A stretch of DNA of 55,583 nt from an uncultured Clostridia bacterium. GTDB lineage: Bacteria > Bacillota > Clostridia > Tissierellales > Sedimentibacteraceae. Under the pieces are notes generated by a model that saw nothing but the letters and a program-made list of their open reading frames with translations, was not told where the DNA came from and searched no databases. Shown piece after piece: positions 16,168 through 46,568 of the stretch (position 1 is the stretch's first letter; each line of letters opens with the position of its first letter). The position numbers were made by a program, and so were the translations under genes. Location: assembly GCA_937875315.1 (NCBI GenBank), contig CALNCE010000020.1, positions 1-55,583 on the forward strand, read 5' to 3'.

Positions 16168-16617
16168 TTAAACAAATAAAATTAAAATAGAAATAATCAA
16201 GCCATAAATTGCAATACCTTCTGCCATACCAACAAATATTAAAGTTTTTCCAAGAAGTGATGAATCTTCTGATATTGCACCTATTGCTGATGAACCAACT
16301 GAGCCTACTGCAAAACCTGTAGCAATAGTGGCTATCCCTGTTGATAATGCTGCAGATAAATATTTAAGTCCTTCTCCGATTCCGCCTGCTCCTGAAGCAG
16401 CCCCTGAGGTAGCTGCTTCAGCTTGAGTTTCAGCAAATACATTGCCTCCGAATACTGTTGTAATTACAGCCCCTGCCATAATTAACCCAAAAGCTGATAC
16501 CGTTGTTAAAATTGCCTTTTTAATATTTCCTGTTTTCCCTTTTTTTATTGCTTTTTTCCCATAAATAATTGTTCCAATTGATACTGCTGATGCAGCAATT
16601 AAAAATATGATAAGCAT
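16168..16617 (-). CDS. ntpK: A/V-type ATP synthase proteolipid (c/K subunit), one hairpin plus N-terminal hydrophobic extension
   Basis: C-terminal hairpin with GMAEGIAIYGL carrying the conserved Glu. Confidence 0.9.
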   Translation of the reverse strand: MLIIFLIAASAVSIGTIIYGKKAIKKGKTGNIKKAILTTVSAFGLIMAGAVITTVFGGNVFAETQAEAATSGAASGAGGIGEGLKYLSAALSTGIATIATGFAVGSVGSSAIGAISEDSSLLGKTLIFVGMAEGIAIYGLIISILILFV

Positions 16618-16667
16618 AATTCTTTCCCTTCACTTTTCATTTATTATTTTTTATTATTTTTTATTAT

Positions 16668-18653: not shown

Positions 18654-18672
18654 TAATTTTACTCCCTTCTTA

Positions 18673-19695: not shown

Positions 19696-20024
19696 TACAG
19701 CTCCTCCAATGAAAATAATCTGTTGAATACTTCCTGAATCAATCTATGTTCTGTTTTTTTATAGACTTTTTCTATCTGCACAGAAACTTTATTTACTTTT
19801 TCCTTTTCAATTCTTTCGGTTTCAGCAACAAATGCCTCTATTTCTTCTGAAATAGTCTGTACTTTTATGTTTGCTTTTCGCAAGTTTTCGCTTTTGTAAT
19901 TTAAAACCTTTTCTTCATATTCCTGCTTTTTCTTAAGCAAAAATTCTTCGTTTTTATTTTTGTTTTCATAAGCTTGCGAGTCTATCCTTATAATTTGATT
20001 TAGAATCTGGTTCAAATATATCAC
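19695..20024 (-). CDS. Probable A/V-ATPase peripheral-stalk subunit G/H
   Basis: ~105 aa charged helical protein first in the operon. Confidence 0.65.
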   Translation of the reverse strand: MIYLNQILNQIIRIDSQAYENKNKNEEFLLKKKQEYEEKVLNYKSENLRKANIKVQTISEEIEAFVAETERIEKEKVNKVSVQIEKVYKKTEHRLIQEVFNRLFSLEEL

Positions 20025-25717: not shown

Positions 25718-25904
25718 TCTGCACCTTCCCTTCTTATTATCAATACGATTGCAATACAACGAAAATTATATCCTTTTTAACTATATTTCATTAACCTCCT
25801 ATCTTTGTTAGTTTTTTTCAATTATGTCCTTATTAAATAAGCTATAACGTATGCATTTAATAATTATATGTATATAAATGAATGCATAAAATATGATTAA
25901 GTCT

Positions 25905-31875: not shown

Positions 31876-32520
31876 TTATTCCTTTTTTTCAAGGGCATTC
31901 TTCACTGCATTCATCAAAGCTTTACTTGTTATGGTTGCACCTGAAACAGCATCCACATCAGTTGTTTGATTTTCTATTATGGATGAAATTATTGTACCTA
32001 TTGCATTTTCACTGACACCCTTTGTTTCATTGTGAGACACAACTTCGATTTGAATAATTTTATCGTCCTTCAGAGTTACTGATACTATGATAGGACCTCC
32101 GATACCTCTATCTTCACCTGTATATTCTATTGAATGAGAATTTATTTCTTCCGACTCCTCAGAAGGGGGTGTTTGTTCCGGTTCTGTTGTTATATATTCT
32201 TCCGATTGTGAAATTATTTCTTCCGGTTCATCTGCAGGTGAAAGTGTCTGTTCTTTTTCGGATTCTTCAGTAGTTTCGGACTCTTGTTCTACAGGTTTTT
32301 CCGGCTTTTGTTCTACATGCTGTTGCACTTCAGTCTGTTGCTCTTCTGAAATATTCTCTTTATTATTATCTTCTGTCTCTTGGTTTATATTTTCACTACT
32401 TAAAATAGTGTTATTTTCAATTCCTTTTGAAGCTTCAGTATCCGTTTTTATTCTCTCATCCGAAGAACAACCAACAATACTAAGCATCAAAATTAATAAT
32501 ACCATCAATAGATTTTTCAT
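31876..32520 (-). CDS. Lipoprotein with E/Q/P-rich linker and C-terminal FMN-binding (flavinylation) domain
   Basis: Lipobox IVGC; GIGGPIIVSVTL...HNETKG...DVDAVSGATITS. Confidence 0.85.
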   Translation of the reverse strand: MKNLLMVLLILMLSIVGCSSDERIKTDTEASKGIENNTILSSENINQETEDNNKENISEEQQTEVQQHVEQKPEKPVEQESETTEESEKEQTLSPADEPEEIISQSEEYITTEPEQTPPSEESEEINSHSIEYTGEDRGIGGPIIVSVTLKDDKIIQIEVVSHNETKGVSENAIGTIISSIIENQTTDVDAVSGATITSKALMNAVKNALEKKE

Positions 32521-32530
32521 AGTCGCCTCG

Positions 32531-33148
32531 TCAAAGCAGTTTTCTTCTTTTTTCAATAGCTTTTAACTCTTTTTGTTCTTCTTCAATAATTTTTTCTTTT
32601 TCTATATTTAGTTTTTTAGATAATATTTCAATAAATATATTCCTGAAATTATTTTTCCATTCTGTCATTGAAGGGCTGTAAGTCAGCCCAAAGGCCAATA
32701 ATTTTCCTGCATCCTCTTGTATATTACCGAGCCGTACCTGTTCAAAATCAAGTCCGTAAATTTCATTACCGGCAATAATAAAGTTTTTAAAATTTACATC
32801 ATATAAAATATATTGCTCTTTATAGAACCCAAAAACAGCAGAGTAAAAACTCTTAAGATAGCTGCATAGAGTATTAACCATTCTTAAGTCCAAAGTATTA
32901 CTTTTTTCTTGTTCCTCATACCAATCAAGAAAATTAAACTCTCCCAAATCTTCAAGATATAAATGGTTTTCTTCTTCTTTAATTATTGAAGGAACCTTAA
33001 CTCCTGCTTTTTTTAAAATATTCAGTATTTCTTTTTCCATTATGTAATTTTCATGATTTTCAAATTTTTTTATAATATATGTGCAGTCATCTTCTACAAT
33101 TCGAAATACTTTATTTCTTTTGCTTATTAATTCTATCTCTTTATGCAT
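32531..33148 (-). CDS. Small-molecule kinase, APH/choline-kinase-like fold
   Basis: IIKKF, GVKVPSII, catalytic loop LYDVNFKNFI, DFE; no signal peptide. Confidence 0.72.
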   Translation of the reverse strand: MHKEIELISKRNKVFRIVEDDCTYIIKKFENHENYIMEKEILNILKKAGVKVPSIIKEEENHLYLEDLGEFNFLDWYEEQEKSNTLDLRMVNTLCSYLKSFYSAVFGFYKEQYILYDVNFKNFIIAGNEIYGLDFEQVRLGNIQEDAGKLLAFGLTYSPSMTEWKNNFRNIFIEILSKKLNIEKEKIIEEEQKELKAIEKRRKLL

Positions 33149-33879
33149 ACTTCAATGTCCCCGTTTTCTGTGTAGCCGCTTAATTCCTTTGCTATTCCTT
33201 CAATGGCATTTTTCAAAATACTCTGAACAAACGGAACCATTGTAATTTCCTGTCCGTTAATTTTAAGCATTACACTCTGCTCAGTCAATATACAGTCCCT
33301 CCTTTCCGCCTCGCCTTTCAAAATCTTTGAGCTTAATTCAGCGCATGTGTATCCGCATTTTTGGCAGCATTCATCCTTCATGTCCGGAGGTCTGTCAAAT
33401 ACTTTCTCCTCAATAATATTCACCATTTTTTCAATTTCAGTTATTGAGTTTATAACGGGAATACCCTCATATTCCGACATGCTATTGGATATTTTCCCTG
33501 ATATTGCAAAGGTTGTTTCATCCATCCTGTCTTGAATTCCTTCCACATCGTGGGCTGTTACTATTTTAGGTATACATGTATCCCTCACTCCTTCTAAAAT
33601 AACAAAATCATGGTTGTAAAAACTAAGAATTTCATTCATGCTCAGCTGTTTTTGGAATAATACGTCTGTTTCATAGGCTCCTCTTGCAGTAACCAGCTGA
33701 GAGCCTGCCATTTTGTGTCTGTGAGTGTTGGTTCCTTCCACGTCCATTTTAAATTCCTCAAAATGAATTTCTTTTACGCTGCCTACAGTATAATTACGTT
33801 TTCGAAGCTCCTTTATTATATTTTCTATGGTAGTAGTTTTACCGGACTTTGTTATTCCGATTACTGAAAAGACCTTCAT
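33133..33879 (-). CDS. mobB: MobB-family GTPase with C-terminal Fe-S domain
   Basis: SVIGITKSGKTTTIE, VGSVKEIH, DVEGTNTHRHKMAG, ILEG; CQKCGYTC...C cluster motif. Confidence 0.88.
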   Translation of the reverse strand: MKVFSVIGITKSGKTTTIENIIKELRKRNYTVGSVKEIHFEEFKMDVEGTNTHRHKMAGSQLVTARGAYETDVLFQKQLSMNEILSFYNHDFVILEGVRDTCIPKIVTAHDVEGIQDRMDETTFAISGKISNSMSEYEGIPVINSITEIEKMVNIIEEKVFDRPPDMKDECCQKCGYTCAELSSKILKGEAERRDCILTEQSVMLKINGQEITMVPFVQSILKNAIEGIAKELSGYTENGDIEVCIKR

Positions 33880-33920: not shown

Positions 33921-34047
33921 ATGCCCTAACCCTATTTTTCAGAGTCCTGATTTGGGGACATTCCTCCTACCAACAAAGACTTTCCCTAAATAAGGAGGTG
34001 TGTCCCCATACCCCTAATAAATAGCGGTAGGTCATTCGCAACGAATT
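33921..34047. repeat. Composite palindrome: REP-like unit (33954-34013) inside the arms of a second palindrome family
   Basis: GGGGACATTCCTCCT...AGGAGGTGTGTCCCC core matches 4449-4559; flanks match 55425-55490. Confidence 0.72.
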
Positions 34048-34808
34048 CCCAATTTATGTGACGCAAGGAACAAATAAATTGGTGAATGAGACTGCGCTAA
34101 TAACAATAATGCTGCTGCAATACTTAGGACTATTATAATATAATCAACTGCCCGCATTTTCAAAACCATGCAGCTTGTTCTTTCGGGGTATGCTCTGAAA
34201 CCTCTCATTTCCATTGCTGCAGCCAATTCCTTTGCCTTTGTTACGGAATTAATGGTAATGGGAGTAAGTATGTATTTGTAAACTTGAATTTTCTTATTTA
34301 ATTTAACTTTCTTTAGCTCAATTCCCCTAAGCTGTATTGCAGTTACCATATCCGTCATTTCCTCTTTGAATATGGGTAAAAATCTTATTGCAACGGAAAC
34401 CATAAAGGCTATTTCATAAGGACAATGCCATTGAATAAGCCCTTGTATTATTTCCCTGCTTGACGATGTTGTTATTATTGCAGCAGAAATTATAATTATT
34501 ACCATTCGCAAAATAAATTCAAGTGCTCTTAAAATTCCGTAATCAGTTAAAATTGTAAGGCTGCCTATTTTCAAAACAGGAGCTCCCGCATTAGTTAACA
34601 AACTCTGAATTAACGCTATTAAAACTATTATTTTAAGAAGCCTTTTTAGCTTTACAAGAGTCGATATTAAATTAACATTATTTATAAGCGCAATTACTAT
34701 TGCTGCAAATAGTATTAATGATAAAACAGATATATCATTGTAAATTAATCCGAGGGTTGATAAAATTAAAACTTGAACTATTTTTGTTCGAGGGTCTATA
34801 TCATTCAT
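34032..34808 (-). CDS. ECF transporter transmembrane component T
   Basis: IDPRTKI, AIRFLP, AIQLRG and AMEMRGF coupling motifs. Confidence 0.93.
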   Translation of the reverse strand: MNDIDPRTKIVQVLILSTLGLIYNDISVLSLILFAAIVIALINNVNLISTLVKLKRLLKIIVLIALIQSLLTNAGAPVLKIGSLTILTDYGILRALEFILRMVIIIISAAIITTSSSREIIQGLIQWHCPYEIAFMVSVAIRFLPIFKEEMTDMVTAIQLRGIELKKVKLNKKIQVYKYILTPITINSVTKAKELAAAMEMRGFRAYPERTSCMVLKMRAVDYIIIVLSIAAALLLLAQSHSPIYLFLASHKLGIRCE

Positions 34809-35457
34809 AATTTACCCCCTCAAGAGCTAATACTTTGTCTTTATGCCTTTCAATAAAATCCTTGTTATGGCTTATAATAAGCATACCTATATTTATCTTT
34901 TTTAATTTGTCCAAAACTTCCGATAATGCATCTATTCTTTCTTTATCAAGGGATGCAGTAGGCTCGTCCAAAATAAGATATTTAGGACCAATCATCAATA
35001 CGGAAGCAATGGCTAAACGCCTTTTTTCTCCATAACTTAAAAAAAGGGGATATGAGTTTTTAACTTTTCCAAGGTCAAAAATTTCAAGCATTTCTTCAGC
35101 TTTATCCATGGTTTCTTCCTTATTGTATCCCTTAAATAATAAAGGGAATGTCAATTCTTCCACTACAGATGTGCTGAAGAGCTGCCTTTCAGGATACTGA
35201 AAAACATAGCCTACCATTTCGCCGATACTGCCAAGAGACAGACTTGCTGTACTTTGACCGAATACTTTTACTTCACCGAAAGATGGTTTCAATATTCCCA
35301 TGATAAGCTTGGTTAAGGTTGTTTTCCCGGAGCCGTTTTTTCCTGTCAGTACAGTTGTTTCTCCATTTTTTAAATTAAGAGAAAAATTGTCAAATACCTT
35401 TCTTCCCTTAGGGTATTTATAAGAAATATTGTTGAGCTCAATTGTGTTATTCATCAT
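34801..35457 (-). CDS. ECF transporter ATPase (A')
   Basis: GKNGSGKTT, VFQYPERQLF, LSYGEKRR, LDEPTASLD. Confidence 0.92.
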   Translation of the reverse strand: MMNNTIELNNISYKYPKGRKVFDNFSLNLKNGETTVLTGKNGSGKTTLTKLIMGILKPSFGEVKVFGQSTASLSLGSIGEMVGYVFQYPERQLFSTSVVEELTFPLLFKGYNKEETMDKAEEMLEIFDLGKVKNSYPLFLSYGEKRRLAIASVLMIGPKYLILDEPTASLDKERIDALSEVLDKLKKINIGMLIISHNKDFIERHKDKVLALEGVNYE

Positions 35458-36111
35458 TCACCTAAGATTAAAAATCCTGTCTGCAATTTTTATATTATCA
35501 TAATCATGGTCAACCATGATTATTGTTTTTCCTTCTTCTTTTAACTTTAATAAAACATCTTTAATTATTTCTTTTCCTTCATCATCAATCCATGACATTA
35601 TTTCATCACATATAAGAATTGAAGGAGCAAGCATTAAAACAGATGCAATTGCAACAAGCTGCTGCTGTCCTCCCGATAAATTATTAGGATTGTCGTATCT
35701 GTATTTTTCCATATTCATTGTTTTTAATATTTTATCAATACGATTGCATATTTCTTCTTTGTCAACACACAGGTTTTCAGGACCAAATGCAAGCTCATCT
35801 TCAATAGTAGGTGAAAAAAGCTGTGTCGAAGGATTTTGAAATATAATTCCTATCTTTGAAACTGTTTCCGAAATACTTAACCTATTTATATTTTCGCCGA
35901 AAATTAATACTTCGCCGGATAATTCACCTTTGTATAACCTTGGTATCAGTCCGCATATTAAGTTACACAAGGTGCTTTTACCGCAGCCGCTTTGTCCGAT
36001 TATTGCAACCGTTTCACCTTTTCTTACGCTAAAATTAACATCCTTTAAAACATATCCTTCCGAGTTGTTGTATTTAAAACTTAAATTTTTAACTTCAACT
36101 GCATTCATCAT
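35458..36111 (-). CDS. ECF transporter ATPase (A)
   Basis: GQSGCGKST, IFQNPSTQLF, AFGPEN, LSGGQQQ, CDE. Confidence 0.92.
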   Translation of the reverse strand: MMNAVEVKNLSFKYNNSEGYVLKDVNFSVRKGETVAIIGQSGCGKSTLCNLICGLIPRLYKGELSGEVLIFGENINRLSISETVSKIGIIFQNPSTQLFSPTIEDELAFGPENLCVDKEEICNRIDKILKTMNMEKYRYDNPNNLSGGQQQLVAIASVLMLAPSILICDEIMSWIDDEGKEIIKDVLLKLKEEGKTIIMVDHDYDNIKIADRIFNLR

Positions 36112-36620
36112 TTAACCTCAATTTCAGTAATCCACTTGCATCTTCTGTTGCTGAAAGTATCCGAAACCACAATGGATTCATAGGGACCTCTTCCTCCTGA
36201 GTCCCTACCGCCTAAGTATTTCCCTTCTTCCATAAAAGCAATATAAACATTTTTATCTATTGAGACCTCTTCTGAAGAATAAGCAACAGAATAACCATCC
36301 GCTGCTTTGATAATAATTATTTTGTTTTGAAAATCAATATTATTCTTATTAAGCAGCTCTTTCAGCTGAACTCCGGTATAGATATGTGTGGCGGGCTCAG
36401 TCGTTGATGTGTCAAGAACTGCTTCAAAATCCCCACTGTAAAGAATTATATCTTCTATGGTTATAACTCTTTTATTTTCATCATCTGCCAAAACAATTTG
36501 TGCATTTGCCAATATTTCTTTTTGTTTTTCAATATATTCTTTGTTTAAATTTAATGAAACAAATAATGTAATTGTCAATATTATTATTAATATAACAATT
36601 ATTGCAGCACTTCTTTTCAT
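36108..36620 (-). CDS. Membrane-anchored single sulfite-oxidase-like (molybdopterin-binding fold) domain protein
   Basis: N-terminal TM; YTGVQLKELL, AADGYSV, IAFMEEG, GPYESIV, KWITEIEV pattern. Confidence 0.72.
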   Translation of the reverse strand: MKRSAAIIVILIIILTITLFVSLNLNKEYIEKQKEILANAQIVLADDENKRVITIEDIILYSGDFEAVLDTSTTEPATHIYTGVQLKELLNKNNIDFQNKIIIIKAADGYSVAYSSEEVSIDKNVYIAFMEEGKYLGGRDSGGRGPYESIVVSDTFSNRRCKWITEIEVK

Positions 36621-37615
36621 GGCTCTTTAATGAAATATGGAACAATAATATCTGATTGAACGCATATTCCGTGTCCTCCTCCTTCATCTGTTTCATGCAT
36701 ACCATGGTCAGGCGCAATTATTATGGCTCCATCCCATACCTTGCCTAAAGTTTCAATATATTGGTCAATGGCTTTTATGTATTCCATTGTTTCATCAGAA
36801 TATGGTCCGAAGCTGTGGCCTCTGTCATCAATTCCGTGAAAATGAATGAAAACCAAATCATAATTTTCATTTACTGCTTTTAAAGCACTTTCATATACTT
36901 CATCATCTGTTTCACCGTTTTTGTTATTATCAATATGGAGTTCAGGCTCAATTTCTGTATTTAATACTTTTATGTCCCCTTCAAGCAAAATAGAATTTTT
37001 ATTGTTCTCGAGACAATAGGCGAATATGCTTTTCACACGCATCTCACGTACACTTCTGTCATGCACTCCGTTAACGTTTGGAGTTTCTCCGGTAATTATT
37101 GCTGCAAAGCCTGCATTTGTAACAGGAGTATAGACGCTTAAGGCAGGATATTTAAAATATTTGCTTAAAAATGGAATGCTGCCTTCTTTAACAGCCATTT
37201 TAAACTGATTGTATGAAAAACCATCTAATAAAACTGCCATAACCTTTTCTTCGTTTCCCAAATATTCTATCATATGAAAATAAGCATTGGTGATGCTTTG
37301 ATAATCATTTGTTAAGTAAATACCTTCAATATTTTCAAATTTAGTCTGGCCGGCAGTCGCATATACCGTGCTGTCACTGCCTATATAATTATCGGAAGAA
37401 AATAAAACTGTGAGCCCTGTGTCACAGATAATGGCTGCACGAGAATAATTCTCCTGTGACAATTCATGTATATAAACATTTCCCTCAGGGATAAAGTCAT
37501 CAATTAGATTTTCATCTTTATTGAATACACTAATACCCTTTAATTCTGTTTCATTTACCCTTGCACTGCAGCTTGTTAAGAATATTAAAATTAATAATAA
37601 TAATATTTTTTTCAT
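36617..37615 (-). CDS. Lipoprotein, alkaline-phosphatase superfamily (NPP/PafA-like)
   Basis: Lipobox LTSC; LLDGF, PVTNAGFAAIITG (Thr nucleophile), HFHGIDDRGH, APDHG, GGGHG. Confidence 0.82.
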   Translation of the reverse strand: MKKILLLLILIFLTSCSARVNETELKGISVFNKDENLIDDFIPEGNVYIHELSQENYSRAAIICDTGLTVLFSSDNYIGSDSTVYATAGQTKFENIEGIYLTNDYQSITNAYFHMIEYLGNEEKVMAVLLDGFSYNQFKMAVKEGSIPFLSKYFKYPALSVYTPVTNAGFAAIITGETPNVNGVHDRSVREMRVKSIFAYCLENNKNSILLEGDIKVLNTEIEPELHIDNNKNGETDDEVYESALKAVNENYDLVFIHFHGIDDRGHSFGPYSDETMEYIKAIDQYIETLGKVWDGAIIIAPDHGMHETDEGGGHGICVQSDIIVPYFIKEP

Positions 37616-37658
37616 ACCGGCATTCCTTTCAGTGAGCATATTATAATCAGCAGCATCT

Positions 37659-38210
37659 TTAATTCTCTAATATATTCATTTTTTCCAAACTTATGTTGAT
37701 TGTATATGCTATGAGCCCGCCTATTGTACCTGACAGGGCTGCGGCAGACAATATTAAGATAACCGTAACAAAGGGAAGCCTGAAAAATAATAAATTGGAA
37801 ATAAGTGTGCCAGTAACATTTGCGGCTAAGCAGCCAAACACATAATGAAGAATATTGTACTTTTTATTCTTAGAAAATAAGAATACAATATCAACAACTA
37901 TTCCCGGCAGAGTGTAGGAAACAATGCTCATGATACCGTGAGTTCCCATAGTTCCCGCTGCAATCACCAGTATTCCTTGTACAATGCCTATTAATGCGGC
38001 TGTGCCTGTTTTTTTTACAATTCCTGCACCCAATACTATCCAAAACATATAGAAACCGCCGGCAATGGCTCCCCCCGGAATAAACAAGGGGCCCGTTATA
38101 ACATGAACCAATGGTACCACAATTGGTTTGGTTGCTATTCCAAGGGCTGATACCACTGCTATTATAATTAAGTTATAGACTGAAAATTTATTAAGAAATT
38201 TTTTTACCAT
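37659..38210 (-). CDS. ECF transporter substrate-binding S component
   Basis: 183 aa, ~6 TM, AVVSAL in TM1, KKTGTAALIG loop; co-encoded with EcfA/A'/T. Confidence 0.82.
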   Translation of the reverse strand: MVKKFLNKFSVYNLIIIAVVSALGIATKPIVVPLVHVITGPLFIPGGAIAGGFYMFWIVLGAGIVKKTGTAALIGIVQGILVIAAGTMGTHGIMSIVSYTLPGIVVDIVFLFSKNKKYNILHYVFGCLAANVTGTLISNLLFFRLPFVTVILILSAAALSGTIGGLIAYTINISLEKMNILEN

Positions 38211-38218: not shown

Positions 38219-38689
38219 CTACTCAAGTATTATTTCATCCACATGCTTAATCCAGCGCTGGCTGAAGGGGTCTCTTCTTATAATCAGCTGGAAGGGACCG
38301 TTTCCTCCCTGTTTCTTTGACTTAAGCAATTCGTTGTCCCTTTCAAATGTCAAATATACATTTGAAGGCTCTTTGATTTCTTCAACGCTTAAAATTATTC
38401 TGTAGCCGTCAGATGCATTAAAGGTAATCTTGCTATAGTTTGAAATATCTATATTCAACGTTTCAAAAAGTTTTATAAGTTCAATGCCTTTGTATTCCGT
38501 TTCAACGGGCTTTGAACCGCTGCTTCTAACGACAGCAGGAAATTTAACTGCTTCTTCATGAGTGTAAATAATTTTCGTATCAACCGTTTCATATTTACCG
38601 TCAATATTTACGGTTAATGAGGGCAGCTCTTCAGAGCAGCCTGTTAAAATAAATATTAAAATTATAAAAATAAGAATTTTCTTTAACAT
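38219..38689 (-). CDS. Lipoprotein with single sulfite-oxidase-like domain
   Basis: Lipobox LTGC; YKGIELIKLF, ASDGY, GPFQLII, RWIKHVDEIIL. Confidence 0.75.
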   Translation of the reverse strand: MLKKILIFIILIFILTGCSEELPSLTVNIDGKYETVDTKIIYTHEEAVKFPAVVRSSGSKPVETEYKGIELIKLFETLNIDISNYSKITFNASDGYRIILSVEEIKEPSNVYLTFERDNELLKSKKQGGNGPFQLIIRRDPFSQRWIKHVDEIILE

Positions 38690-38703
38690 ATTTTCCCCTC
38701 TGC

Positions 38704-39858
38704 TCAATTGTCCAATGAGCTGTTCACTGCATCCTTTACGGAGTTTAAGAAACCCCTGCAGGTTGAAGTAGCCCCGCTTATGGAATCCACGTTTAAATTT
38801 TGAGTTTCAGTGATTTCATAGGATAATTCTCTAAATGCTTCTTCGAAATAGCCTGTAGTTTCACCGTGACTCAGAACTTTTATATTTGTTATTTTCTTAT
38901 TGTTTATAATAACTTCCGTATTCATTATACCGCCAAAGCCCATCCCAAAGCCTTCATAGGTTCCATCTTTTATGCTGTCAATTGAAGTTATTGCCTGCAC
39001 TGAAGTATTTGAACCTGATAATGGGAAAAATATATATAAACCTGCAATTATACAAATACATATTAATATATAGGTTGAATTCTTAAGTTTTCTGTTTCCA
39101 ATAGTCAGCGAAAAACCATCATTATTTTTGATGCATTTATTTATACATTTAAGACAGTTAATGCATTCGGGTGATATTTCTTCCGCCTCGGTTTGCTGCT
39201 CTTCTACAGGACAGTCTTTTAAACAATAAGAGCAGTTACAGCTCCCTTTATTAATTTTAAATGGTCCCACTGCATATAGCAAGCTTTGAAATGCTCCCAA
39301 AGGACAAAAATATCTGCAGAATATTCTCCTTCCAATCAGTGATACAAAGATAATCAATAATAAAACTATTGTTCCGGTTTGAAATTTTGCTCCTATGAAT
39401 ATATTTAAGTATGCAAGCCAGGGAGAAAACGGAGAAACTATGTTTCCCATGCCAAGTATACTTAAAATCATTATTGCAATTAAAACAATATATTTAAGAA
39501 GTTCAGGATTATGAGGAAATTTTACTTCCTTCAGCCCGATTTTACTTCCTGTATATTTGAAAAAGTCCTGCATTGCTCCAATAGGACAAATATAACCGCA
39601 AAAAGCTCTTCCCATCAAAAATGCGGTGACAGCTATTCCTGTTGTTAATGCAATGCTTCTTGAAGCTCCACGCCATCTGTAAGATAGATCCATAAAGAAA
39701 GACTTAAGAGCACTCCATCCGCCGTAAGGATTCATATCTCCTATGGAGAGAATTCTAAACCCAATTATTTCATTTATATACATGCCGTAGCTCAAACATG
39801 ACAATACCACTATAATGGTTGCAGTGATTTGTATTACGCTTCTTATATTCAACTTCAT
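38704..39858 (-). CDS. NapH/NosR-like membrane polyferredoxin with C-terminal FMN-binding domain
   Basis: FCGYICPIG and FCRYFCPLG, CSYCLKDCP, CINCLKCINKC; VDSISGATST. Confidence 0.87.
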   Translation of the reverse strand: MKLNIRSVIQITATIIVVLSCLSYGMYINEIIGFRILSIGDMNPYGGWSALKSFFMDLSYRWRGASRSIALTTGIAVTAFLMGRAFCGYICPIGAMQDFFKYTGSKIGLKEVKFPHNPELLKYIVLIAIMILSILGMGNIVSPFSPWLAYLNIFIGAKFQTGTIVLLLIIFVSLIGRRIFCRYFCPLGAFQSLLYAVGPFKINKGSCNCSYCLKDCPVEEQQTEAEEISPECINCLKCINKCIKNNDGFSLTIGNRKLKNSTYILICICIIAGLYIFFPLSGSNTSVQAITSIDSIKDGTYEGFGMGFGGIMNTEVIINNKKITNIKVLSHGETTGYFEEAFRELSYEITETQNLNVDSISGATSTCRGFLNSVKDAVNSSLDN

Positions 39859-41423
39859 TTCTTTTCAATCCTTGATAGTTCCGTCATTATTTTCTTATCC
39901 TTATGTAGACTGACTTGTCCATCTTCATAAATCAAATAACATTTAAGCATATCATCCATAGAAAGCTCAATCTTTTCATCATTTTTATTTACTGCAGTAA
40001 ATTTGTCATCTTCATCCCATCTCATGCCTGCAACCAAAAGCACATCTTCCAAAAGCATTCCTTCACTTCCCCCAATTGATTTTGTTCTTACAACTTCAAT
40101 CATTTTCTCGGGGAAAATAACGGCATCCTTTGTGGTTGAAAAATGAGTCATATGTTTTACATTCATTCCAAGCTTAAAATTAGGAGCAATATTCATCGGA
40201 GCATTATCTCCTTCAACCTTAATAAAATATCTTTGCCTTACCAATGATATTGTTTCATGTTTTGCAAGACCGTCTGTGGCAGACATGGTAAAGAATCCTT
40301 TTTCATCTACTTCATCAAATTTTCTTAATATTTTCCCTACTTCTATGGAGCTATCCTTAGAGCCGTAGTATTCATAATAATAGGGCTCAATATCTTCGGT
40401 CAAAGGGTTGAACATGTGCACTTTATCAATATCCTTGGGGGATATTTCCTTATATAAATCAATATTTGAAACCATTTTTACCCAGTAAGGACCAAGCTCC
40501 AAAGGAACAGAAATTCTTACCGGTTTTTCTTCGTCTTTGATATCCTTTCCGTTTATCTGCCAGGTAAGTATTATATCATTTACAGCTAATTTTTCCTTGT
40601 CTATCATGGTGTAGTATCCGTCCCTCCCGGTCACACCTATACCTGCATACCGGCTTAAGTCAATACCTTCATTTTCCAAAACATCACGAAGAGAAGGTCC
40701 TTTTACACGCATATCCGTTTCTGTTCCCGTTGTATTAATTAAAGTAACATCCATGTCTAACTGTTCATATTTTTTAATTTCATCAGTATCTATTCGAACA
40801 GAGCCGCCATCCCAATTTATTGCAAAGCTGTTAATATCCTTCTGCCACATTTCCTGAGGCACCACATCAGGAACTTTTGCCATTTGAATATTATAATTCC
40901 AATACTGATAATGTCCAATGGCTGCATTTACGGCATTTACCACAGCCTGAGAGCTTATGGTGGCGCCTGTCAGCTGGATGATATCTTCGGGGTTTTCCTT
41001 ATCAAGAACTACCAAATTTAAATATTTATTAATAGGTAAATTTGTAAACCTGTCCAAAAAGTAATCATATTCCATATGCTCCGCATAGTCCGGTGATTCC
41101 TCGTGGTTTAAAATTTTAATTCCAATTAACAACTCATCATATTGGTCTAAAGCAGCCAAAACTTCTATAGGACCGTTATATCCGACACAGCTTACAACAT
41201 ATGCACATGTTTTTCCATCAATTTCATATGCTCTTTTTACTGCGGGAAAATACAATGAACCATATAAGTCATCAGAAAAGCCTTTTATCAGTGTTATTTT
41301 TTTCGCAGTTGGATAAAATAACTTTACTGCTTCCTTTTCCTCAGAAGAATCATTTAGCGTAAAAAACAAAGTGCCTGCAACAACCAAAATAATTATGATA
41401 ATAAGTATGTATCTGTTTTTCAT
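39855..41423 (-). CDS. Membrane-anchored RnfG-like FMN-binding domain fused to sulfite-oxidase-like domain(s)
   Basis: GYNGPIEV, NHEESPDY, QLTGATISS; then KGPSLRDVLE, GRDGY, PVRISVP, YWVKMVSNI. Confidence 0.8.
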   Translation of the reverse strand: MKNRYILIIIIILVVAGTLFFTLNDSSEEKEAVKLFYPTAKKITLIKGFSDDLYGSLYFPAVKRAYEIDGKTCAYVVSCVGYNGPIEVLAALDQYDELLIGIKILNHEESPDYAEHMEYDYFLDRFTNLPINKYLNLVVLDKENPEDIIQLTGATISSQAVVNAVNAAIGHYQYWNYNIQMAKVPDVVPQEMWQKDINSFAINWDGGSVRIDTDEIKKYEQLDMDVTLINTTGTETDMRVKGPSLRDVLENEGIDLSRYAGIGVTGRDGYYTMIDKEKLAVNDIILTWQINGKDIKDEEKPVRISVPLELGPYWVKMVSNIDLYKEISPKDIDKVHMFNPLTEDIEPYYYEYYGSKDSSIEVGKILRKFDEVDEKGFFTMSATDGLAKHETISLVRQRYFIKVEGDNAPMNIAPNFKLGMNVKHMTHFSTTKDAVIFPEKMIEVVRTKSIGGSEGMLLEDVLLVAGMRWDEDDKFTAVNKNDEKIELSMDDMLKCYLIYEDGQVSLHKDKKIMTELSRIEKK

Positions 41424-41431: not shown

Positions 41432-42217
41432 CTATTCAATGATAATTACATCTATATTTGATACCCACTGGGGTTTATTTATATCTCCGGGCTCTTTTTG
41501 TCCTACTGCAAGTTTATAGGGAGCACCTTCATTTGTGGAATATTCTTCGCCGTTCTCTTCCCATGCAATAATCATGGGATATTTATTGTCAGGATTTGTT
41601 TCATCCATATATTCCATTTTAACCTGCTCAATTGTAAATTCCATGATGTATCCGTCCTGAGCTGTAATGGATATCTTTGAAGCTTCAGACTTTATCAGGG
41701 CTTTGCTTTCCAATAAGTCCCACAGCTTAACACCCTTAAAATGCGTATAGCCTGTTGTGCCGAAATTGTTCAGCCAATAAAAGTCAGCTTCAAAAATAAT
41801 ATCACTCATTCCCTTTAACTCATCTAAAGATAAAGAAAGCTCATTATCTACAAGACCTTTAACTTTTAAAACATTTTCTGCAATTACCGGCTGCTCATCC
41901 ACCGGCGGGGCTTCTTCTGTCGTCTTAGCAGTTACCGGCAATTCTTTAGAAGAATCAACCTTTGCATCTCCTTCCGGTTGTTCTGCTTCAGGTGTTTCTT
42001 CGGGAATTTCTTCAATTTCGCTTTCAATAGGTTCTTCAGGTTTGCCTGCTTCTTCCGGTTCATCCGGTGCTTCAGTTTCCCCTTTGATTATTTCATTATT
42101 GTTTTCTTCAATTGCAGCATTACTATCTCCATTTGCTGCCGGAGCATCAGTTTTTTCTGCAGAGCACCCTGCCAATATAAATATTACCGCAAATACTATA
42201 ATTAATAGTTTTTTCAT
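41432..42217 (-). CDS. Lipoprotein with long E/P-rich linker and sulfite-oxidase-like domain
   Basis: Lipobox LAGC; LKVKGLVDNELSLSLDEL, FKGVKLWDLL, AQDGY, IAWEENGE, QWVSNI. Confidence 0.8.
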   Translation of the reverse strand: MKKLLIIVFAVIFILAGCSAEKTDAPAANGDSNAAIEENNNEIIKGETEAPDEPEEAGKPEEPIESEIEEIPEETPEAEQPEGDAKVDSSKELPVTAKTTEEAPPVDEQPVIAENVLKVKGLVDNELSLSLDELKGMSDIIFEADFYWLNNFGTTGYTHFKGVKLWDLLESKALIKSEASKISITAQDGYIMEFTIEQVKMEYMDETNPDNKYPMIIAWEENGEEYSTNEGAPYKLAVGQKEPGDINKPQWVSNIDVIIIE

Positions 42218-42257
42218 ATAATACACCTCTTAAGAGGGGAGGAAACCTCCCCCTTAA

Positions 42258-45098
42258 TTATTTATTTAAATATCTTAAAAGCATTACCGTCGCTTCTGCT
42301 CTTGTTGTATTTTGTGTGCCGCCAAAAATATTGCCGGGCAATCCTTTGATAATCTCAGCTTTAACTGTCTTTGCAACATTTACCTTTGCCCACTGAGACA
42401 CCTCATCATTGAAAACAGACAATACTTCATCAGCGTTTGTTATTTCTTCTTCCAAAAGTGAGCCTATTACAGTTCCTATTTCCTGCCTTGTAATGGGAGA
42501 ATTTGGCTTGAATGTTCCATCTTCATAGCCTTTTACATATCCTTTTTCTGCTGCTGCTAAAACATCCTTTACAAACCAGTCTGTAGGTTTCACATCAGCA
42601 AAGTTTGATACTGCATCTTCATCAGCAATATTTAATACTCTGATTAACAATGATACAAATTCTGCTCTGCTGATATTATTATTTGGTCTGAATAAACCGT
42701 TGCTGCCTTTTGCATAACCCATTGCCGCCATTTCCAGAATACTGTCCTTTGCCCAGTGGTTATCAATATCAGCAAAAAGAATATCCTTATCGGTTTTTAC
42801 ATCCTTCATTTCAGGTGCTTCATAATCTCCGGTGCCTAAAACTATGCAGTCAACCCATTTAACCCACATGGATTTGCTTTCTTCGATAATGAGTCTCAAA
42901 GGACCATACGCATTGTTATTTATATATCCTAAGCTTGATTCGTTTGGCACTAAGGGATAGCCTTCTGCTGCATATGCTAAAATTATTTTCTTATTCTGAC
43001 CCTGTGAATTTAAAACTCCATTTACGACCTGCTCATTGCTTCTTAATATTTGATTGTAATTTTGACCGGCAAATACCCTTATGTTTGGAGCATCTACATC
43101 ATCTTTAAGTCCAACAACATCATTGATCAAATTCCAAAGAACAATACCCTGCATTTCAAGAATGCCGTCACCTGTGTAAGTATCTCTCTTTGCATACTCT
43201 GTCATTGCTTCAATCTGCCTTAATGTAAATGTCATAGGTTCTTTAATTTGAGAGCCTGTTACACGTAATACCGGCATGTCCAGGTATCCTTTATATACAC
43301 CTTGATTGTGTCCCCAGGATTCATCAATTTCTTGTTCTGTACTTGTACCTTCACCGGTTCCTTGAGTATCTGTTGCAATTGACTCCCCTTCACCGATAAT
43401 TATTTCTTTTGCAAACTGCACCTGGTTTGAGCCGTTTGTATCGTTATAACCTGTTTTGCCGAATATTATTCTAAGGGGTCCTCCGTCATTTCCAAGACCC
43501 GGATTATAACCTTGGTCTGCAGGCCGGGCTACATAAGGATATCCGTTGTATCCATAGGCAACCAATACCGGAAGCTCTGTATAAACAGGATTAACATATT
43601 CTCCCGGGAAAGCTCCGTCACCTTTGTCCAATGCACTTTTCTCATAATAACCGTACAAAGAATCATCCTTTATTTGCTTTATGGTCATTGGTGCAAAATT
43701 ATAATTATCTGCAGCAATGAAACGCACGCTGATATTTTCATCTATATTTGGGTCCAAGCCTGCCTCAAGAAGCAAGTCCCACAAAGGAACACCTTTGTAT
43801 GAATTGTAATACCAAAAATATTCACTGTTTGAAAGGCTGTATTCCTTGACTGTATGAAGGTCTGTCATTGCTTCAATATCTTTGACGGTGTACCTTGTTT
43901 CTTTGCCTAAAGCGTCTCCGTGAATTATCAATTCATAATCAGTATATTTTGGATTATTGTATGGAGCATAGCTGTGCTCGTAAATATTTTCAGCATCCTT
44001 TTCTTCAATATAAATATATGCTACATTGGTAAATTCCTTGGCTGTGTTTTTATCTTGTTCATATACTAGCTTAAAACAACCGTCGTCATTATTCTTTTCC
44101 TTTATATAACCTTCTTCTGTGTCCAAGTATACCAAGGGAACTTCATTAATGCCGTAGGCAACGACATAATTATCTGCTTCGGAAATATTAACCGTAAGAA
44201 TGTTCTGTCTTGATTTATCCTTAAATATGATATTGCCTGCATTATCCTTTGCTTTCACATAATTATCGATTAAATATTTTACATTTATTCCCTCATATAA
44301 ATTTTCAACAACTTTACCGTCAATCTTTTCATAATATTTATTTAATAACTGTCCACCGGTATCCTCTTCTACCTGCCTCAATGAAACAGCTCTGTATCCT
44401 TCAACTCCGGGACCTTCAATTGTAAATGTGGCTCCGGTTATTGCATCCACATTGTAAGGTTCACCATCATGACTGATGTGTTTGTAAGGTGATGAGGGAG
44501 TAACCTTTATTAACTCATCCCCCACTGTGAGCTTCACTACTTCCTTGCCCCATTTAGACATATTCATATCATCAATGTCTGTTTGTCCAAATACAAGTTT
44601 TGGAAAGTCTTTATCTATATCAGCTTCTGTTATAGGAATATCTGTCCATGTAACCGGGGGAGCAAAAATATTCTTTGGAAAATCAGCCATTACCGTTATG
44701 TATTTTGCTACCATAGGCATAACTTCTTCCTTGCTCCCTAAGGTAAAGTCACTGAAATAGTAAGCATTTTTAAGCTCGCTGAGGGTTTTGGTAAATTCAA
44801 AGCCGTCAGAGCAAGTAAATTTAACTGTATAATCTTTGTCTGTTTTTAAACCGTCTCCAATAAGGTCGAATAAATCATATCCTTTTGCTTTTACGATTTT
44901 ATGAAATCCAAGGCTGTTGTTTGTGGAATATGTTCTCTCAATTAAGCTGTAATTTGACCAGTCCCCTGATGAAATTATTACTTCTTCTTCCATTCCCGTG
45001 CCTGTAATTACAAGTTCAGGCTGAGCTGCTGAAACAGGCATTGCATTCATAATAATCAGGGATATAATCAACAGCCATATTGTAACTTTTCTTGCCAT
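42258..45098 (-). CDS. SLH-anchored surface protein with four tandem sulfite-oxidase-like domains
   Basis: Sec signal; four repeats (KGYDLFDL, YEGINVKYL, YKGVPLWDLL, MQGIVLWNL; GPLR/PKL cores); three C-terminal SLH motifs (FRPNNNISRAE, FKPNSPITRQE, TTRAEA). Confidence 0.82.
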   Translation of the reverse strand: MARKVTIWLLIISLIIMNAMPVSAAQPELVITGTGMEEEVIISSGDWSNYSLIERTYSTNNSLGFHKIVKAKGYDLFDLIGDGLKTDKDYTVKFTCSDGFEFTKTLSELKNAYYFSDFTLGSKEEVMPMVAKYITVMADFPKNIFAPPVTWTDIPITEADIDKDFPKLVFGQTDIDDMNMSKWGKEVVKLTVGDELIKVTPSSPYKHISHDGEPYNVDAITGATFTIEGPGVEGYRAVSLRQVEEDTGGQLLNKYYEKIDGKVVENLYEGINVKYLIDNYVKAKDNAGNIIFKDKSRQNILTVNISEADNYVVAYGINEVPLVYLDTEEGYIKEKNNDDGCFKLVYEQDKNTAKEFTNVAYIYIEEKDAENIYEHSYAPYNNPKYTDYELIIHGDALGKETRYTVKDIEAMTDLHTVKEYSLSNSEYFWYYNSYKGVPLWDLLLEAGLDPNIDENISVRFIAADNYNFAPMTIKQIKDDSLYGYYEKSALDKGDGAFPGEYVNPVYTELPVLVAYGYNGYPYVARPADQGYNPGLGNDGGPLRIIFGKTGYNDTNGSNQVQFAKEIIIGEGESIATDTQGTGEGTSTEQEIDESWGHNQGVYKGYLDMPVLRVTGSQIKEPMTFTLRQIEAMTEYAKRDTYTGDGILEMQGIVLWNLINDVVGLKDDVDAPNIRVFAGQNYNQILRSNEQVVNGVLNSQGQNKKIILAYAAEGYPLVPNESSLGYINNNAYGPLRLIIEESKSMWVKWVDCIVLGTGDYEAPEMKDVKTDKDILFADIDNHWAKDSILEMAAMGYAKGSNGLFRPNNNISRAEFVSLLIRVLNIADEDAVSNFADVKPTDWFVKDVLAAAEKGYVKGYEDGTFKPNSPITRQEIGTVIGSLLEEEITNADEVLSVFNDEVSQWAKVNVAKTVKAEIIKGLPGNIFGGTQNTTRAEATVMLLRYLNK

Positions 45099-45150
45099 TT
45101 GTACCTCCTGATAATAAATGAGCAAATATCGCTCATTTATTTTCTTTATA

Positions 45151-46311
45151 TTATTCCGTTACTATTTCCGGTTCCGGAAACAGCGTGTTAAACACAACCA
45201 ATGCTGCTTCCGCACGATTAACATTCTTCACAGGTTCAAAGTTCTCAGCTGCTACTCCCACGAATACATCCTGTGCTTCAAGCCATGCTACAGCATTTCC
45301 TGCCCAGTCTGCAACATCTTCTTTGTCTGTGTAATTTGATTTTTCCATTACAAATTTGTCGACTCTTGCTTGTTCAACAAGTCCTTTTTTAACTGCTGCC
45401 CTTGCCGCTACAACTGCCATCTCTTGTCTTGTTATTACTTTTTCCGGTGCAAATGTGCCGTCTGTATATCCTACGAACAGCCCTGAATCAACAGCAGCTT
45501 GTACATATGGCGCTGACCATCTGTCAACAGTTATATCGCTGAATGCTCCTTCATAATCTTTAAGTTCATATTCCAATGCCACAACAATTATTTTGCAAAA
45601 TTGTTCTCTTGTAAACTCATTTCCGGGAGCATAAAGTCCGCCGCCCACACCATCTATTATTCCTCTTTTTGCAAGGTCATAAATTGCTGTTTCTGCAAAC
45701 TTGTATTCTTCTGTTATATCTGTAAAAGTAACTGTTTCTGTTACTTCTTCTTCAGCAGGTTCGGTATCCGGTACTTCTTCTTCCGGTGTTTCTTCAACAA
45801 CTTCTGCTTCACCTACAGTAATTTTATTAACCAATTTAAAAACGGTGCCAAATTCGCCTTCTGCTTTTACATTTCTGTAAACAGTTATTTCTTCAATTAC
45901 AGCTTCATCATTGTCTACAGCCTCACCGTCTACCTCATAAGCTAATACAAATTTTAGTTCATCATTTAAAACATCCTGAAGCGGTTGAGGGTCGATATCA
46001 TAACCATCTGCTGCGAAAAACTCAACGCTTCCATCTTCAGCAGTCACTCCTGCTTTTTCCTTCAATAAATAAGCTAAGCTTACGCCTTTAACCTGGACTG
46101 TTTTTTCTCCGCCTTTTGAATTATAAACATAATCCTGTGCTATTTGAGCTTCTTCAGGCATTCCCTTCAGCTCATCAAGAGTAAGCTTGAGTTCTGTTGC
46201 AGCCAAAGTGCCTCCGATTTCAACTGCGTAATTTTCTTCTGCAAAAACCAATGATTGCGATAGAATTATCACAATAACCAATACCAATGAAATTACTTTA
46301 AATTTTTTCAT
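45151..46311 (-). CDS. SLH-anchored surface protein with one sulfite-oxidase-like domain
   Basis: Sec signal; LTLDELKGM, KGVSLAYLL, AADGY, LAYEVDGE; acidic linker; three SLH motifs. Confidence 0.82.
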   Translation of the reverse strand: MKKFKVISLVLVIVIILSQSLVFAEENYAVEIGGTLAATELKLTLDELKGMPEEAQIAQDYVYNSKGGEKTVQVKGVSLAYLLKEKAGVTAEDGSVEFFAADGYDIDPQPLQDVLNDELKFVLAYEVDGEAVDNDEAVIEEITVYRNVKAEGEFGTVFKLVNKITVGEAEVVEETPEEEVPDTEPAEEEVTETVTFTDITEEYKFAETAIYDLAKRGIIDGVGGGLYAPGNEFTREQFCKIIVVALEYELKDYEGAFSDITVDRWSAPYVQAAVDSGLFVGYTDGTFAPEKVITRQEMAVVAARAAVKKGLVEQARVDKFVMEKSNYTDKEDVADWAGNAVAWLEAQDVFVGVAAENFEPVKNVNRAEAALVVFNTLFPEPEIVTE

Positions 46312-46385
46312 ACTTTCCTCCATAAGTTTTTATTATTTAATTTAGCAGGACTAAATTTAAATCATAAAAGTACGATAAAAAACCC

Positions 46386-46417
46386 AAAAAAACAACACTT
46401 CTGATAGAAATGCTGTT
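46386..46417 (-). terminator. Leader terminator (riboswitch expression platform)
   Basis: AACAGCAUUUCU-AUC-AGAAGUGUUGUU followed by a U-tract, between aptamer and first start codon. Confidence 0.75.
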
Positions 46418-46427
46418 CCCATGCTAT

Positions 46428-46528
46428 GTATATCTCCTTTCCATCAGGAGGCTTGACCGTTTCCAGTCAAACCCTATCGGCATAACGCCATAAATTTACA
46501 TTCTAAGGCTGTTATGCTCGGAGCTATT
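46428..46528 (-). ncRNA. Moco-family riboswitch (Moco RNA motif), P3-less 'Tuco' variant
   Basis: - strand: CUCCGAGCAUAACAGCC...UAUGGCGUUAUGC-CGAU-AGGGUUUGACUGGAAACGGUCAAGCCUCCUGAUGGAAAGGAG; hallmark CUCCGAG, AGGG, GAAA tetraloop, GCCUCC..UGGAAAGGAG; no P3 between P2 and P4. Confidence 0.9.
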
Positions 46529-46539
46529 AAGTTAAATTA

Positions 46540-46568
46540 ATTATATCACAATCTAAAAGTAGTGTAAA
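46540..46568 (-). promoter_or_regulatory. SigA promoter of the riboswitch-controlled operon
   Basis: TTTACA-17 bp-TATAAT with extended TG, just upstream of the aptamer. Confidence 0.75.

What the first reader, a model, noticed from the sequence alone, without database searches (positions are those of the whole stretch)
46386..46568. P3-less (Tuco-type) Moco riboswitch with transcription-terminator platform
Seen: only CGAU separates P2 from the AGGG of P4, so stem P3 of the E. coli moaA-type RNA is absent. A hairpin with U-tract follows about 10-15 nt after the aptamer. Established: P3-less variants were associated with tungsten-cofactor genes, and the direct ligand is not biochemically settled. 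Inference: an OFF switch, pointing to tungsten cofactor as the operon's target.
Basis: partly seen in the sequence, partly recalled or inferred. Interest (0 to 1): 0.8.

Follow-up and report, generated by a model that had tools for sequence, protein, structure and literature searches.

The report
Riboswitch-gated tungsten-cofactor salvage operon
A known type of RNA switch for the tungsten/molybdenum cofactor sits in front of a vitamin-type uptake system with predicted pterin-catching surface proteins, and related bacteria that keep cofactor-dependent enzymes but lack a key cofactor-making gene nearly always carry it, so it likely imports the ready-made cofactor from the surroundings.

Summary
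Rfam RF01055 matches 46535-46418 (-) at 71.7 bits, with no P3. A promoter-like site precedes it and a hairpin with seven U follows. I also found an antiterminator (46447-46438 with 46410-46401) that is predicted to dominate the nascent, ligand-free RNA; its pairing beats shuffles in 27 of 27 homologous leaders. An OFF switch is therefore likely. P3-less switches with terminators are already published (E. limosum).

The surprise is the 15-gene operon. It encodes an ECF importer (S subunit folds like YkoE, Z 20), several surface domains of the sulfite-oxidase/PruR pterin-binding fold without the metal-binding cysteine, a phosphodiesterase and MobB. In 201 genomes of the order, the S gene occurs in 16 of 18 genomes with AOR-family enzymes but no MoaC, 20 of 76 with both, and 1 of 107 without AOR. 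Near-closed genomes show the same pattern. Best reading: salvage of ready-made pyranopterin cofactor (about 0.7). Tungsten rather than molybdenum is only moderately supported. Ten literature searches found no such transporter, but this scan's earlier notes reached the same idea on other genomes. Nothing is shown experimentally.

The parts
46540..46568 (-). sigma-70-like promoter, 17-nt spacer, extended -10; start of transcription predicted near 46533
   Evidence: 11 of 12 matches; 4 sites found against 1.9 in shuffles, so not proof by itself
46418..46535 (-). RF01055 Moco/Wco riboswitch aptamer without P3 (P1 core 46523-46520 with 46437-46434; P4 GAAA loop 46463-46460; P5 46448-46441)
46476..46479 (-). 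4-nt J2/4 junction (CGAU) where P3 would stand
46438..46447 (-). 5' arm of the predicted antiterminator (P5 and J5/1 of the aptamer)
46401..46410 (-). 3' arm of the predicted antiterminator (5' arm and loop of the terminator)
46386..46420 (-). intrinsic-terminator-like hairpin with a 7-U tract
45151..46323 (-). gene 1: secreted SUOX/PruR-like domain plus 3 SLH domains (390 aa; true start likely 46311 after GGAGG)
42258..45125 (-). gene 2: 955-aa SLH protein; weak SUOX-like stretches (best iE 0.001 with my profile; Atlas cluster 70% PF00174, a lead only)
41432..42226 (-). gene 3: lipoprotein with SUOX/PruR-like domain
39855..41423 (-). gene 4: FMN_bind (RnfG-like) plus SUOX/PruR-like domain
38704..39858 (-). 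gene 5: NapH-like 4Fe-4S membrane protein plus FMN_bind
38219..38707 (-). gene 6: lipoprotein, SUOX/PruR-like domain (paralogue of gene 9)
37659..38210 (-). gene 7: ECF S component of YkoE type (PF09819)
36617..37639 (-). gene 8: alkaline-phosphatase-superfamily phosphodiesterase, lipoprotein signal
36108..36620 (-). gene 9: membrane-anchored SUOX/PruR-fold domain without the molybdenum-binding cysteine
34801..36111 (-). genes 10-11: two ECF-type ATPases
   Evidence: best NCBIfam matches ECF_ATPase_1 and _2, below curated cut-offs
34032..34808 (-). gene 12: ECF T component (CbiQ/EcfT)
33133..33879 (-). gene 13: MobB with C-terminal FeS domain
32531..33148 (-). gene 14: kinase-like (APH family, weak)
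31876..32556 (-). gene 15: FMN_bind lipoprotein (close relatives often have a 630-aa FAD-oxidoreductase-FMN_bind protein here)

Best explanation
This is a P3-less Moco/Wco-class riboswitch that likely stops transcription of a 15-gene operon when pyranopterin cofactor is plentiful, and that operon likely imports the ready-made cofactor, more probably the tungsten form, through an ECF transporter. Predicted switching: without ligand, P5 and J5/1 pair with the 5' arm of the terminator as it is made, so polymerase reads through; with ligand, P1 and P5 are held, the terminator forms and transcription ends near 46386. Inferred pathway: SLH- and lipid-anchored SUOX/PruR-fold domains catch the cofactor at the surface; the flavinylated and FeS proteins may keep it reduced; the phosphodiesterase may trim nucleotide-tagged forms; the S/T/A/A' importer takes it in; MobB and the kinase-like protein may hand it on to the genome's four AOR-family enzymes. 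Shown: family, geometry, folds, gene content and co-occurrence. Inferred: ligand binding, direction of transport, cargo, metal and every enzymatic role. Odds by step: family 0.99, OFF terminator 0.85, cofactor import 0.7, tungsten-selective about 0.55.
For: Riboswitch. Antiterminator: pair probability 0.90-0.98 with P1 at 0.05 or less for transcripts of 133-139 nt; the terminator state wins at full length (-52.2 against -47.0 kcal/mol); 27 of 27 distinct operon leaders beat 300 shuffles at p of 0.05 or less, median z -3.6; 95% of cells paired against 66% or less when slid. Regulation: a switch precedes 17 of 20 operon loci fetched across the order (16 of 19 by cmscan; one by pattern); two misses stop inside gene 1. 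Importer: the S model matches YkoE 5edl at Z 20.1, rmsd 2.7, 174 aligned, next best Z 14.0. Capture domain: Z 16.6, rmsd 2.0, 123 aligned to PruR 7kom, tied with sulfite oxidase 3hbg at Z 15.9; no cysteine at the metal position; positions that I match to PruR's pterin-contacting N/Y/W (PMC11194511 passages; alignment for N and Y, by eye for W) are D 83/83, Y or F 83/83, W 76/83. Profile, order draw of 201: S in 16 of 18 AOR+ MoaC-, 20 of 76 AOR+ MoaC+, 1 of 107 AOR-; one miss has the operon's MobB. MoeA not found in 5 of 5 further MoaC-lacking carriers; MoaA not found in 5 of 5. Carriers without MoaC include genomes in 1-2 contigs: G027, G068, G305, G313, G422. Phylum draw of 401: 38 of 42 other S carriers have AOR; MoaC is missing in 19 of 42 carriers (13 families) against 3 of 38 sampled AOR+ non-carriers; two of those three carry a divergent S fused to a SUOX-like domain.
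Against: No binding, transport or expression data. Antiterminator covariation is not significant on 11 close homologues (1 compensatory pair; 129 of 500 shuffles as high), so the support is conserved complementarity and folding energy. PruR's pocket is reported too short for Moco (PMC11194511), and I did not measure pocket size here. 20 of 76 AOR+ MoaC+ genomes also carry the operon. G126 (210 contigs), G468 (70) and G020 (110) have AOR and no MoaC, and neither S nor PF00174 was found in them. G151 counts as a carrier but its locus lacks the A/T genes and the switch; without it the count is 15 of 18. This genome is in 398 contigs and has the 5' part of moaA at a contig end, so its own lack of moaC and moeA is not secure. 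Kin are not independent, so the Fisher P values (1e-6, 5e-4) overstate. G103 and G027 argue against strict tungsten specificity.
Confidence: 0.7

Rival explanations
1. The operon is a cofactor importer as described, but the P3-less switch and the cargo are metal-blind or molybdenum-type. This rival concerns only the metal and is compatible with the rest.
For: G103 has the operon and a P3-less switch, no MoaC and no AOR, but 3 XDH-family and 2 DMSOR-family genes. G027 has 3 XDH-family genes. The P3 rule is a correlation, and deleting P3 in E. coli abolished regulation rather than switching it (PMC2408646).
Against: 36 of 37 carriers in the order have AOR-family genes. 19 of 19 tupA-type leaders are P3-less. 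E. limosum P3-less terminator switches respond to tungsten limitation. G027 keeps MoeA, so it could re-metalate imported pterin.
Confidence: 0.35
2. The ECF imports a metal-free precursor (molybdopterin, cPMP) or a simple pterin, and the cell finishes the cofactor itself.
For: The closest solved relatives, PruR proteins, bind small pterins and are reported unable to hold Moco. YkoE-type S units are filed with thiamine or its precursors. G027 and G018 keep MoeA.
Against: Seven carriers among 61 relatives and 5 of 5 further carriers have no MoeA_N match. None of the 8 MoaC-lacking carriers among the 61 has a match to the TupA query. Without MoeA no known route inserts the metal.
Confidence: 0.12
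3. The operon is an extracytosolic electron-transfer system of flavinylated proteins, and the ECF module exports flavin or cofactor to surface enzymes.
For: Three FMN_bind domains and a NapH-like protein. Listeria uses ECF subunits for extracytosolic flavin trafficking (PMC9973259, listing and abstract start only).
Against: Many carriers outside the genus lack matches to genes 2, 3, 5 and 15 but keep S, T, A, A' and SUOX-like genes. The SUOX-like domains lack the catalytic cysteine. An OFF switch and enrichment in non-producers fit import, not export.
Confidence: 0.08
4. The ECF is a new tungstate or molybdate importer that replaces TupABC.
For: This genome has no match to TupA or TupB queries. 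Metal-ion ECF systems exist (CbiM-type 5x3x appears at Z 9.8).
Against: Bare oxyanion is of no known use to cells without MoaC and MoeA. The S fold is far closer to vitamin-binding YkoE (Z 20.1). Pterin-fold domains flank S in 25 of 29 phylum loci.
Confidence: 0.06
5. The link to missing biosynthesis genes is an artefact of incomplete assemblies.
For: Most genomes are metagenome bins. This one has a cut moaA on a 1.36-kb contig.
Against: Genomes in 1-2 contigs show the same pattern (G027, G068, G305, G313, G422). Random loss would not favour carriers (19 of 42 against 3 of 38).
Confidence: 0.04

Closest known systems
Moco/Wco riboswitch class, Rfam RF01055, P3-less ('Tuco') subtype (Regulski 2008, PMC2408646; parts 1-5 of 7 read and the supplement searched)
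   Same: P1, P2, P4 with GAAA loop, P5, no P3; terminator platforms are described for some members.
   Different: Listed targets are biosynthesis genes, oxyanion transporters and enzymes. No ECF operon is named in what I read (0 hits for 'cbi', COG1122, SLH in the supplement, which was cut when stored). Two S. wolfei P3-less switches before 'SO family' genes were left as exceptions; they may be this kind of non-catalytic domain (not checked).
Eubacterium limosum Tuco riboswitches (PMC11725836, passages)
   Same: P3-less RF01055 followed by a terminator; fetABC1 and focA rise under tungsten limitation.
   Different: Targets are WOR1, TupABC, 'iron' ABC transporters and FocA in a cofactor producer; 'ECF' does not occur in the main text.
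Group I ECF vitamin importer YkoEDC (S component 5EDL; PMC5037267, listing and abstract start only)
   Same: S fold (Z 20.1), PF09819, dedicated T and A/A' genes in one operon. Riboswitch control of YkoEDC is recalled, not read.
   Different: 19% identity; a Moco/Wco switch instead of TPP; extra surface SUOX-fold domains, phosphodiesterase, MobB and FMN_bind proteins.
PruR pterin-binding proteins (PMC11194511 and PMC13259868, passages)
   Same: Secreted stand-alone SUOX fold without the molybdenum cysteine; aromatic residues kept at the pterin-stacking positions.
   Different: PruR is a proteobacterial signalling partner of DcpA and binds monapterin. Here the domain is multiplied, surface-anchored and linked to a transporter; Asp replaces Asn and the PW motif is absent.
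Dietary Moco uptake in nematodes (PMC7619442, passages)
   Same: Organisms without Moco synthesis that depend on ready-made cofactor.
   Different: Eukaryotic; that paper says the import mechanism is unknown.

Membership tests
RF01055 Moco/Wco riboswitch | Covariance-model score above the gathering threshold | tested here: met
   71.7 bits against 36
RF01055 Moco/Wco riboswitch | P1/P2/P4/P5 junction with GAAA tetraloop on P4 | tested here: met
RF01055 Moco/Wco riboswitch | 5' of pyranopterin-related genes on the same strand | tested here: met
   MobB and PF00174 genes in the downstream run; all gaps 31 nt or less except one of 152 nt
RF01055 Moco/Wco riboswitch | Direct binding of the cofactor and ligand-dependent control | not testable with these tools
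   needs probing or a reporter; direct binding was not shown in PMC2408646
P3-less (Tuco) subtype | No P3 stem | tested here: met
   4-nt junction; 27 of 27 operon leaders caught by the pattern
P3-less (Tuco) subtype | Host and target genes belong to tungsten metabolism | tested here: inconclusive
   4 AOR genes here and 36 of 37 carriers AOR+, but G103 lacks AOR and this genome lacks tupA
Terminator-type (transcriptional OFF) platform | Hairpin with U tract and a mutually exclusive antiterminator that overlaps the aptamer | tested here: met
   (computed folds only)
Terminator-type (transcriptional OFF) platform | Compensatory changes in the antiterminator | tested here: inconclusive
   1 pair; 129 of 500 shuffles as high
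Terminator-type (transcriptional OFF) platform | RNA 3' ends at the U tract | tested here: inconclusive
   only contigs with scattered pieces were available
Group I ECF importer | Six-helix S-component fold | tested here: met
Group I ECF importer | Own T and two A genes in the same operon | tested here: met
Group I ECF importer | Substrate bound and imported | not testable with these tools
   needs reconstitution
Sulfite oxidase family enzymes | SUOX Moco-binding fold | tested here: met
   Z 15.9, rmsd 2.3, 128 aligned to 3hbg
Sulfite oxidase family enzymes | Conserved molybdenum-binding cysteine on the hairpin | tested here: not met
   no Cys in that region of genes 1, 3, 4, 6, 9; the only conserved Cys in alignment A1 is C161 near the C end
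PruR proteins | Cys-less SUOX fold with pterin-stacking aromatic pair | tested here: met
PruR proteins | PW motif and a dcpA-type gene directly downstream | tested here: not met
   the corresponding hairpin reads LDTS; neighbours are transporter genes

The most novel reading that the evidence does not exclude
This operon is a dedicated bacterial uptake system for intact, metal-loaded tungsten pyranopterin cofactor. It lets many anaerobic Bacillota run tungsten enzymes with no cofactor synthesis, so Wco/Moco is traded between microbes like vitamin B12, and the P3-less riboswitch is its tungsten-cofactor sensor.
Probability: 0.5. Interest if true: 0.9.

Novelty: new variant of a known kind. Interest (0 to 1): 0.74.

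Why it matters
Pyranopterin cofactors are labile and are generally taken to be made inside each cell (established knowledge). In nematodes uptake is known but the importer is not (PMC7619442). A named bacterial importer would make cofactor cross-feeding testable in anaerobic communities and would explain genomes with AOR enzymes but no moa/moe genes. It would also offer a way to settle what P3-less switches sense: in a natural non-producer the cofactor inside the cell could be set from the medium. The riboswitch alone is ordinary.

Tried and rejected
Expression: the two RNA-labelled runs held 0.09 and 0.07 of the words; laid, they gave only short scattered contig pieces, so nothing on read-through or habitat. 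Sequence searches of the PDB with gene 3, gene 7 and alignment A2 found nothing useful; only the fold search placed them. The ESM Atlas hit for gene 2 scored 0.76, a lead only. Covariation test of the antiterminator: not significant. In the tupA group the same duplex test was weaker (median z -2.2). No strong terminator-like site on the - strand inside the operon; four weak ones lie inside genes. Reading the SUOX-like genes as sulfite oxidases was rejected (no metal cysteine). 'This genome has lost all synthesis genes' was rejected as too strong, because moaA is partly present. Literature searches for prior description of the transporter: (0 papers); for the switch; for PruR. No listing or passage I saw described a Moco/Wco ECF importer; most listed papers were seen as title and abstract start only. 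PMC3766115, PMC11477304, PMC13328260, PMC9971707, PMC13119186 and bioRxiv 2024.10.15.618519 were read as passages and added nothing on it. The 2009 survey of ECF families and the 2023 moaA structure paper were not read; subscription papers, RegPrecise tables and unread supplements could hold a prior prediction. ApbE (flavin transferase) was not looked for. No complex prediction was run.

Full report
Observation. The only Rfam hit in the window is RF01055 at 46535-46418 on the - strand, 71.7 bits against a gathering score of 36, with the P3 columns gapped. Four bases, CGAU, join P2 to the AGGG of P4. An 11/12 sigma-70 match lies at 46568-46540 and one terminator-like hairpin at 46420-46388, followed by seven U. 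The aptamer folds at z -3.5 and the hairpin at z -5.6. On 11 homologues the P3-less structure has 7 pairs with changes on both sides, and 0 of 500 shuffles reach this.

How the switch likely works. Bases 46447-46438 (P5 and J5/1) are complementary to 46410-46401 (5' arm and loop of the terminator). For transcripts of 133-139 nt the predicted pairing probability of this helix is 0.90-0.98 and that of P1 is 0.05 or less; at full length the aptamer-plus-terminator state is 5 kcal/mol more stable. So read-through is predicted without ligand and termination when ligand holds P1 and P5. I collected 49 distinct leaders by pattern from the fetched loci; the pattern misses some, including three P3-containing ones. 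27 precede this operon, and in 27 of 27 the terminator arm pairs with its own aptamer end better than 300 shuffles at p of 0.05 or less. On an alignment of 11 of them, 95% of cells pair against 66% or less when slid, but only one pair is compensatory and 129 of 500 shuffles do as well. The antiterminator is thus conserved and energetically favoured, not proven by covariation. RNA data were uninformative.

What it controls. Fifteen genes run from 46323 to 31876 with gaps of 31 nt or less, bar one of 152 nt. They encode SLH- and lipid-anchored proteins with PF00174-like domains, three FMN_bind domains, a NapH-like protein, a PF09819 membrane protein, a phosphodiesterase, two ATPases, a T component, MobB-FeS and a kinase-like protein. 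The gene-7 model (pLDDT 84) matches the ECF S component YkoE at Z 20.1, rmsd 2.7, 174 aligned; the next is Z 14.0. The gene-9 model (pLDDT 93) matches PruR 7kom at Z 16.6 and sulfite oxidase 3hbg at Z 15.9, a tie. It lacks the molybdenum cysteine and keeps D108, Y/F110 and W163, which I match to PruR's pterin-contacting N102, Y104 and W160 (PMC11194511, passages; the W match is by eye). A profile of this domain also finds genes 1, 3, 4 and 6 and, weakly, gene 2. The closest named relatives are Sedimentibacter (record titles). The operon is conserved across the order in a long and a short form, with the switch in front in 17 of 20 fetched loci.

Who needs it. This genome has four AFOR_C genes, two of them behind weaker P3-less RF01055 matches below the gathering score (33.9 and 31.8 bits). 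It has no match to MoaC, MoeA, TupA, MOSC or MobA or to the XDH family; one weak PF00384 match is unresolved. A 1.36-kb contig holds the 5' part of moaA and a 26-residue remnant of mogA, so its own status is uncertain. In an even draw of 201 genomes of the order (minimum completeness 95, plus this one), the S gene is in 16 of 18 with AOR and no MoaC, 20 of 76 with both, and 1 of 107 without AOR. Of the two misses, G157 has the operon's MobB on a short contig and G126 has nothing found. G151 is a doubtful carrier. MoaA was not found in 5 of 5 and MoeA in 5 of 5 tested non-producers. In a phylum draw of 401, 42 other genomes carry S, 38 of them with AOR, and 25 of 29 inspected loci have a SUOX-like gene within 1.5 kb. 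MoaC is missing in 19 of the 42, across 13 families, against 3 of 38 sampled from the 176 AOR+ non-carriers. Two of those three have a divergent S fused to a SUOX-like domain; G468 remains unexplained. G027, G068, G305, G313 and G422 are in 1-2 contigs. Kin are not independent and MoaC is a single marker in most of these counts.

Which metal. For tungsten: AOR-family enzymes are mostly tungsten enzymes (established knowledge); 36 of 37 carriers in the order have them; 19 of 19 tupA-type leaders are P3-less (the TupA label is the best NCBIfam match, below cut-off); of the four P3-containing leaders seen, three precede FecCD-type transporter or moeA genes and one a contig end; P3-less terminator switches in E. 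limosum are de-repressed by tungsten limitation (PMC11725836, passages). Against strict specificity: G103 has the operon, a P3-less switch, no MoaC, no AOR and XDH- and DMSOR-family genes; G027 has three XDH-family genes and a MobA-MoeA fusion. The P3 rule itself is a correlation (PMC2408646).

Comparison and novelty. The RNA is a member of RF01055, P3-less subtype, with an architecture already in print. The operon meets the genomic and fold tests for a group I ECF importer; its accessory domains work like PruR by fold but fail PruR and sulfite-oxidase membership. I found no paper on a Moco/Wco ECF importer; the library omits most subscription papers. I wrote down the salvage idea, before looking at the scan's notes. 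Those notes show eight listed reports with the same reading on other genomes; they are not independent support, but the idea is not new to this scan. Look-ups for this genome and for this leader returned nothing.

Verdict. A real, ordinary riboswitch in front of a likely undescribed cofactor-salvage importer. Confidence 0.7 for salvage, about 0.55 that it is tungsten-selective. Interest 0.74.

Noticed in passing
L077 (G026:C2:186000-202000), L076; also G005, G009, G019, G022, G028: Several Sedimentibacter genomes, one 99% complete, have mogA-moaA-moaC-MOSC or a MoaC match but no MoeA_N match. How they would insert the metal is unexplained.
   Followed up: partly
L048 (G027), L056, L057: P3-containing RF01055 switches with terminators precede FecCD-type ABC transporters and moeA or a mobA-moeA fusion; possibly molybdate importers of the MolABC kind (label recalled) or a second cofactor route.
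   Followed up: partly
L133:333-2530 and L134 (G348, G374): Divergent ECF S component fused to a C-terminal SUOX-like domain, after a two-domain SUOX-like gene, in AOR+ genomes without MoaC.
   Followed up: partly
L045 (G000:C130): mogA is reduced to a 26-residue 3' remnant between a modC-like gene and moaA, which suggests a decaying synthesis operon or a mis-binned piece.
   Followed up: partly
L078 (G020:C64) against G000 contigs C206, C275, C57: 98-100% identical DNA, including G020's only AOR gene; one of the two bins may hold the other's contig.
   Followed up: partly
L003:1328-1422 and L002:954-1065: Two degenerate P3-less RF01055 matches before AOR operons; the first has a very short P2 and no GAAA loop, the second a GCAA loop and a U-tailed hairpin.
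   Followed up: partly
tupA leaders, e.g. L010, L012, L015, L021: The U-tailed hairpin also covers the likely ribosome-binding site, so it may act on both transcription and translation; its antiterminator uses a different register from the ECF-operon leaders.
   Followed up: partly
L091:1795-1967 (G103): A cobalamin riboswitch lies just downstream of the operon copy, which also sits beside a DMSOR-family gene.
   Followed up: no
window 22344-23822 and 24239-25759: Two near-identical tandem genes that look like sodium-dependent (SNF-type) transporters (label from the translation, not tested).
   Followed up: no
window 11443-20024: A complete V/A-type ATPase operon (labels from the translations, not tested).
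   Followed up: no
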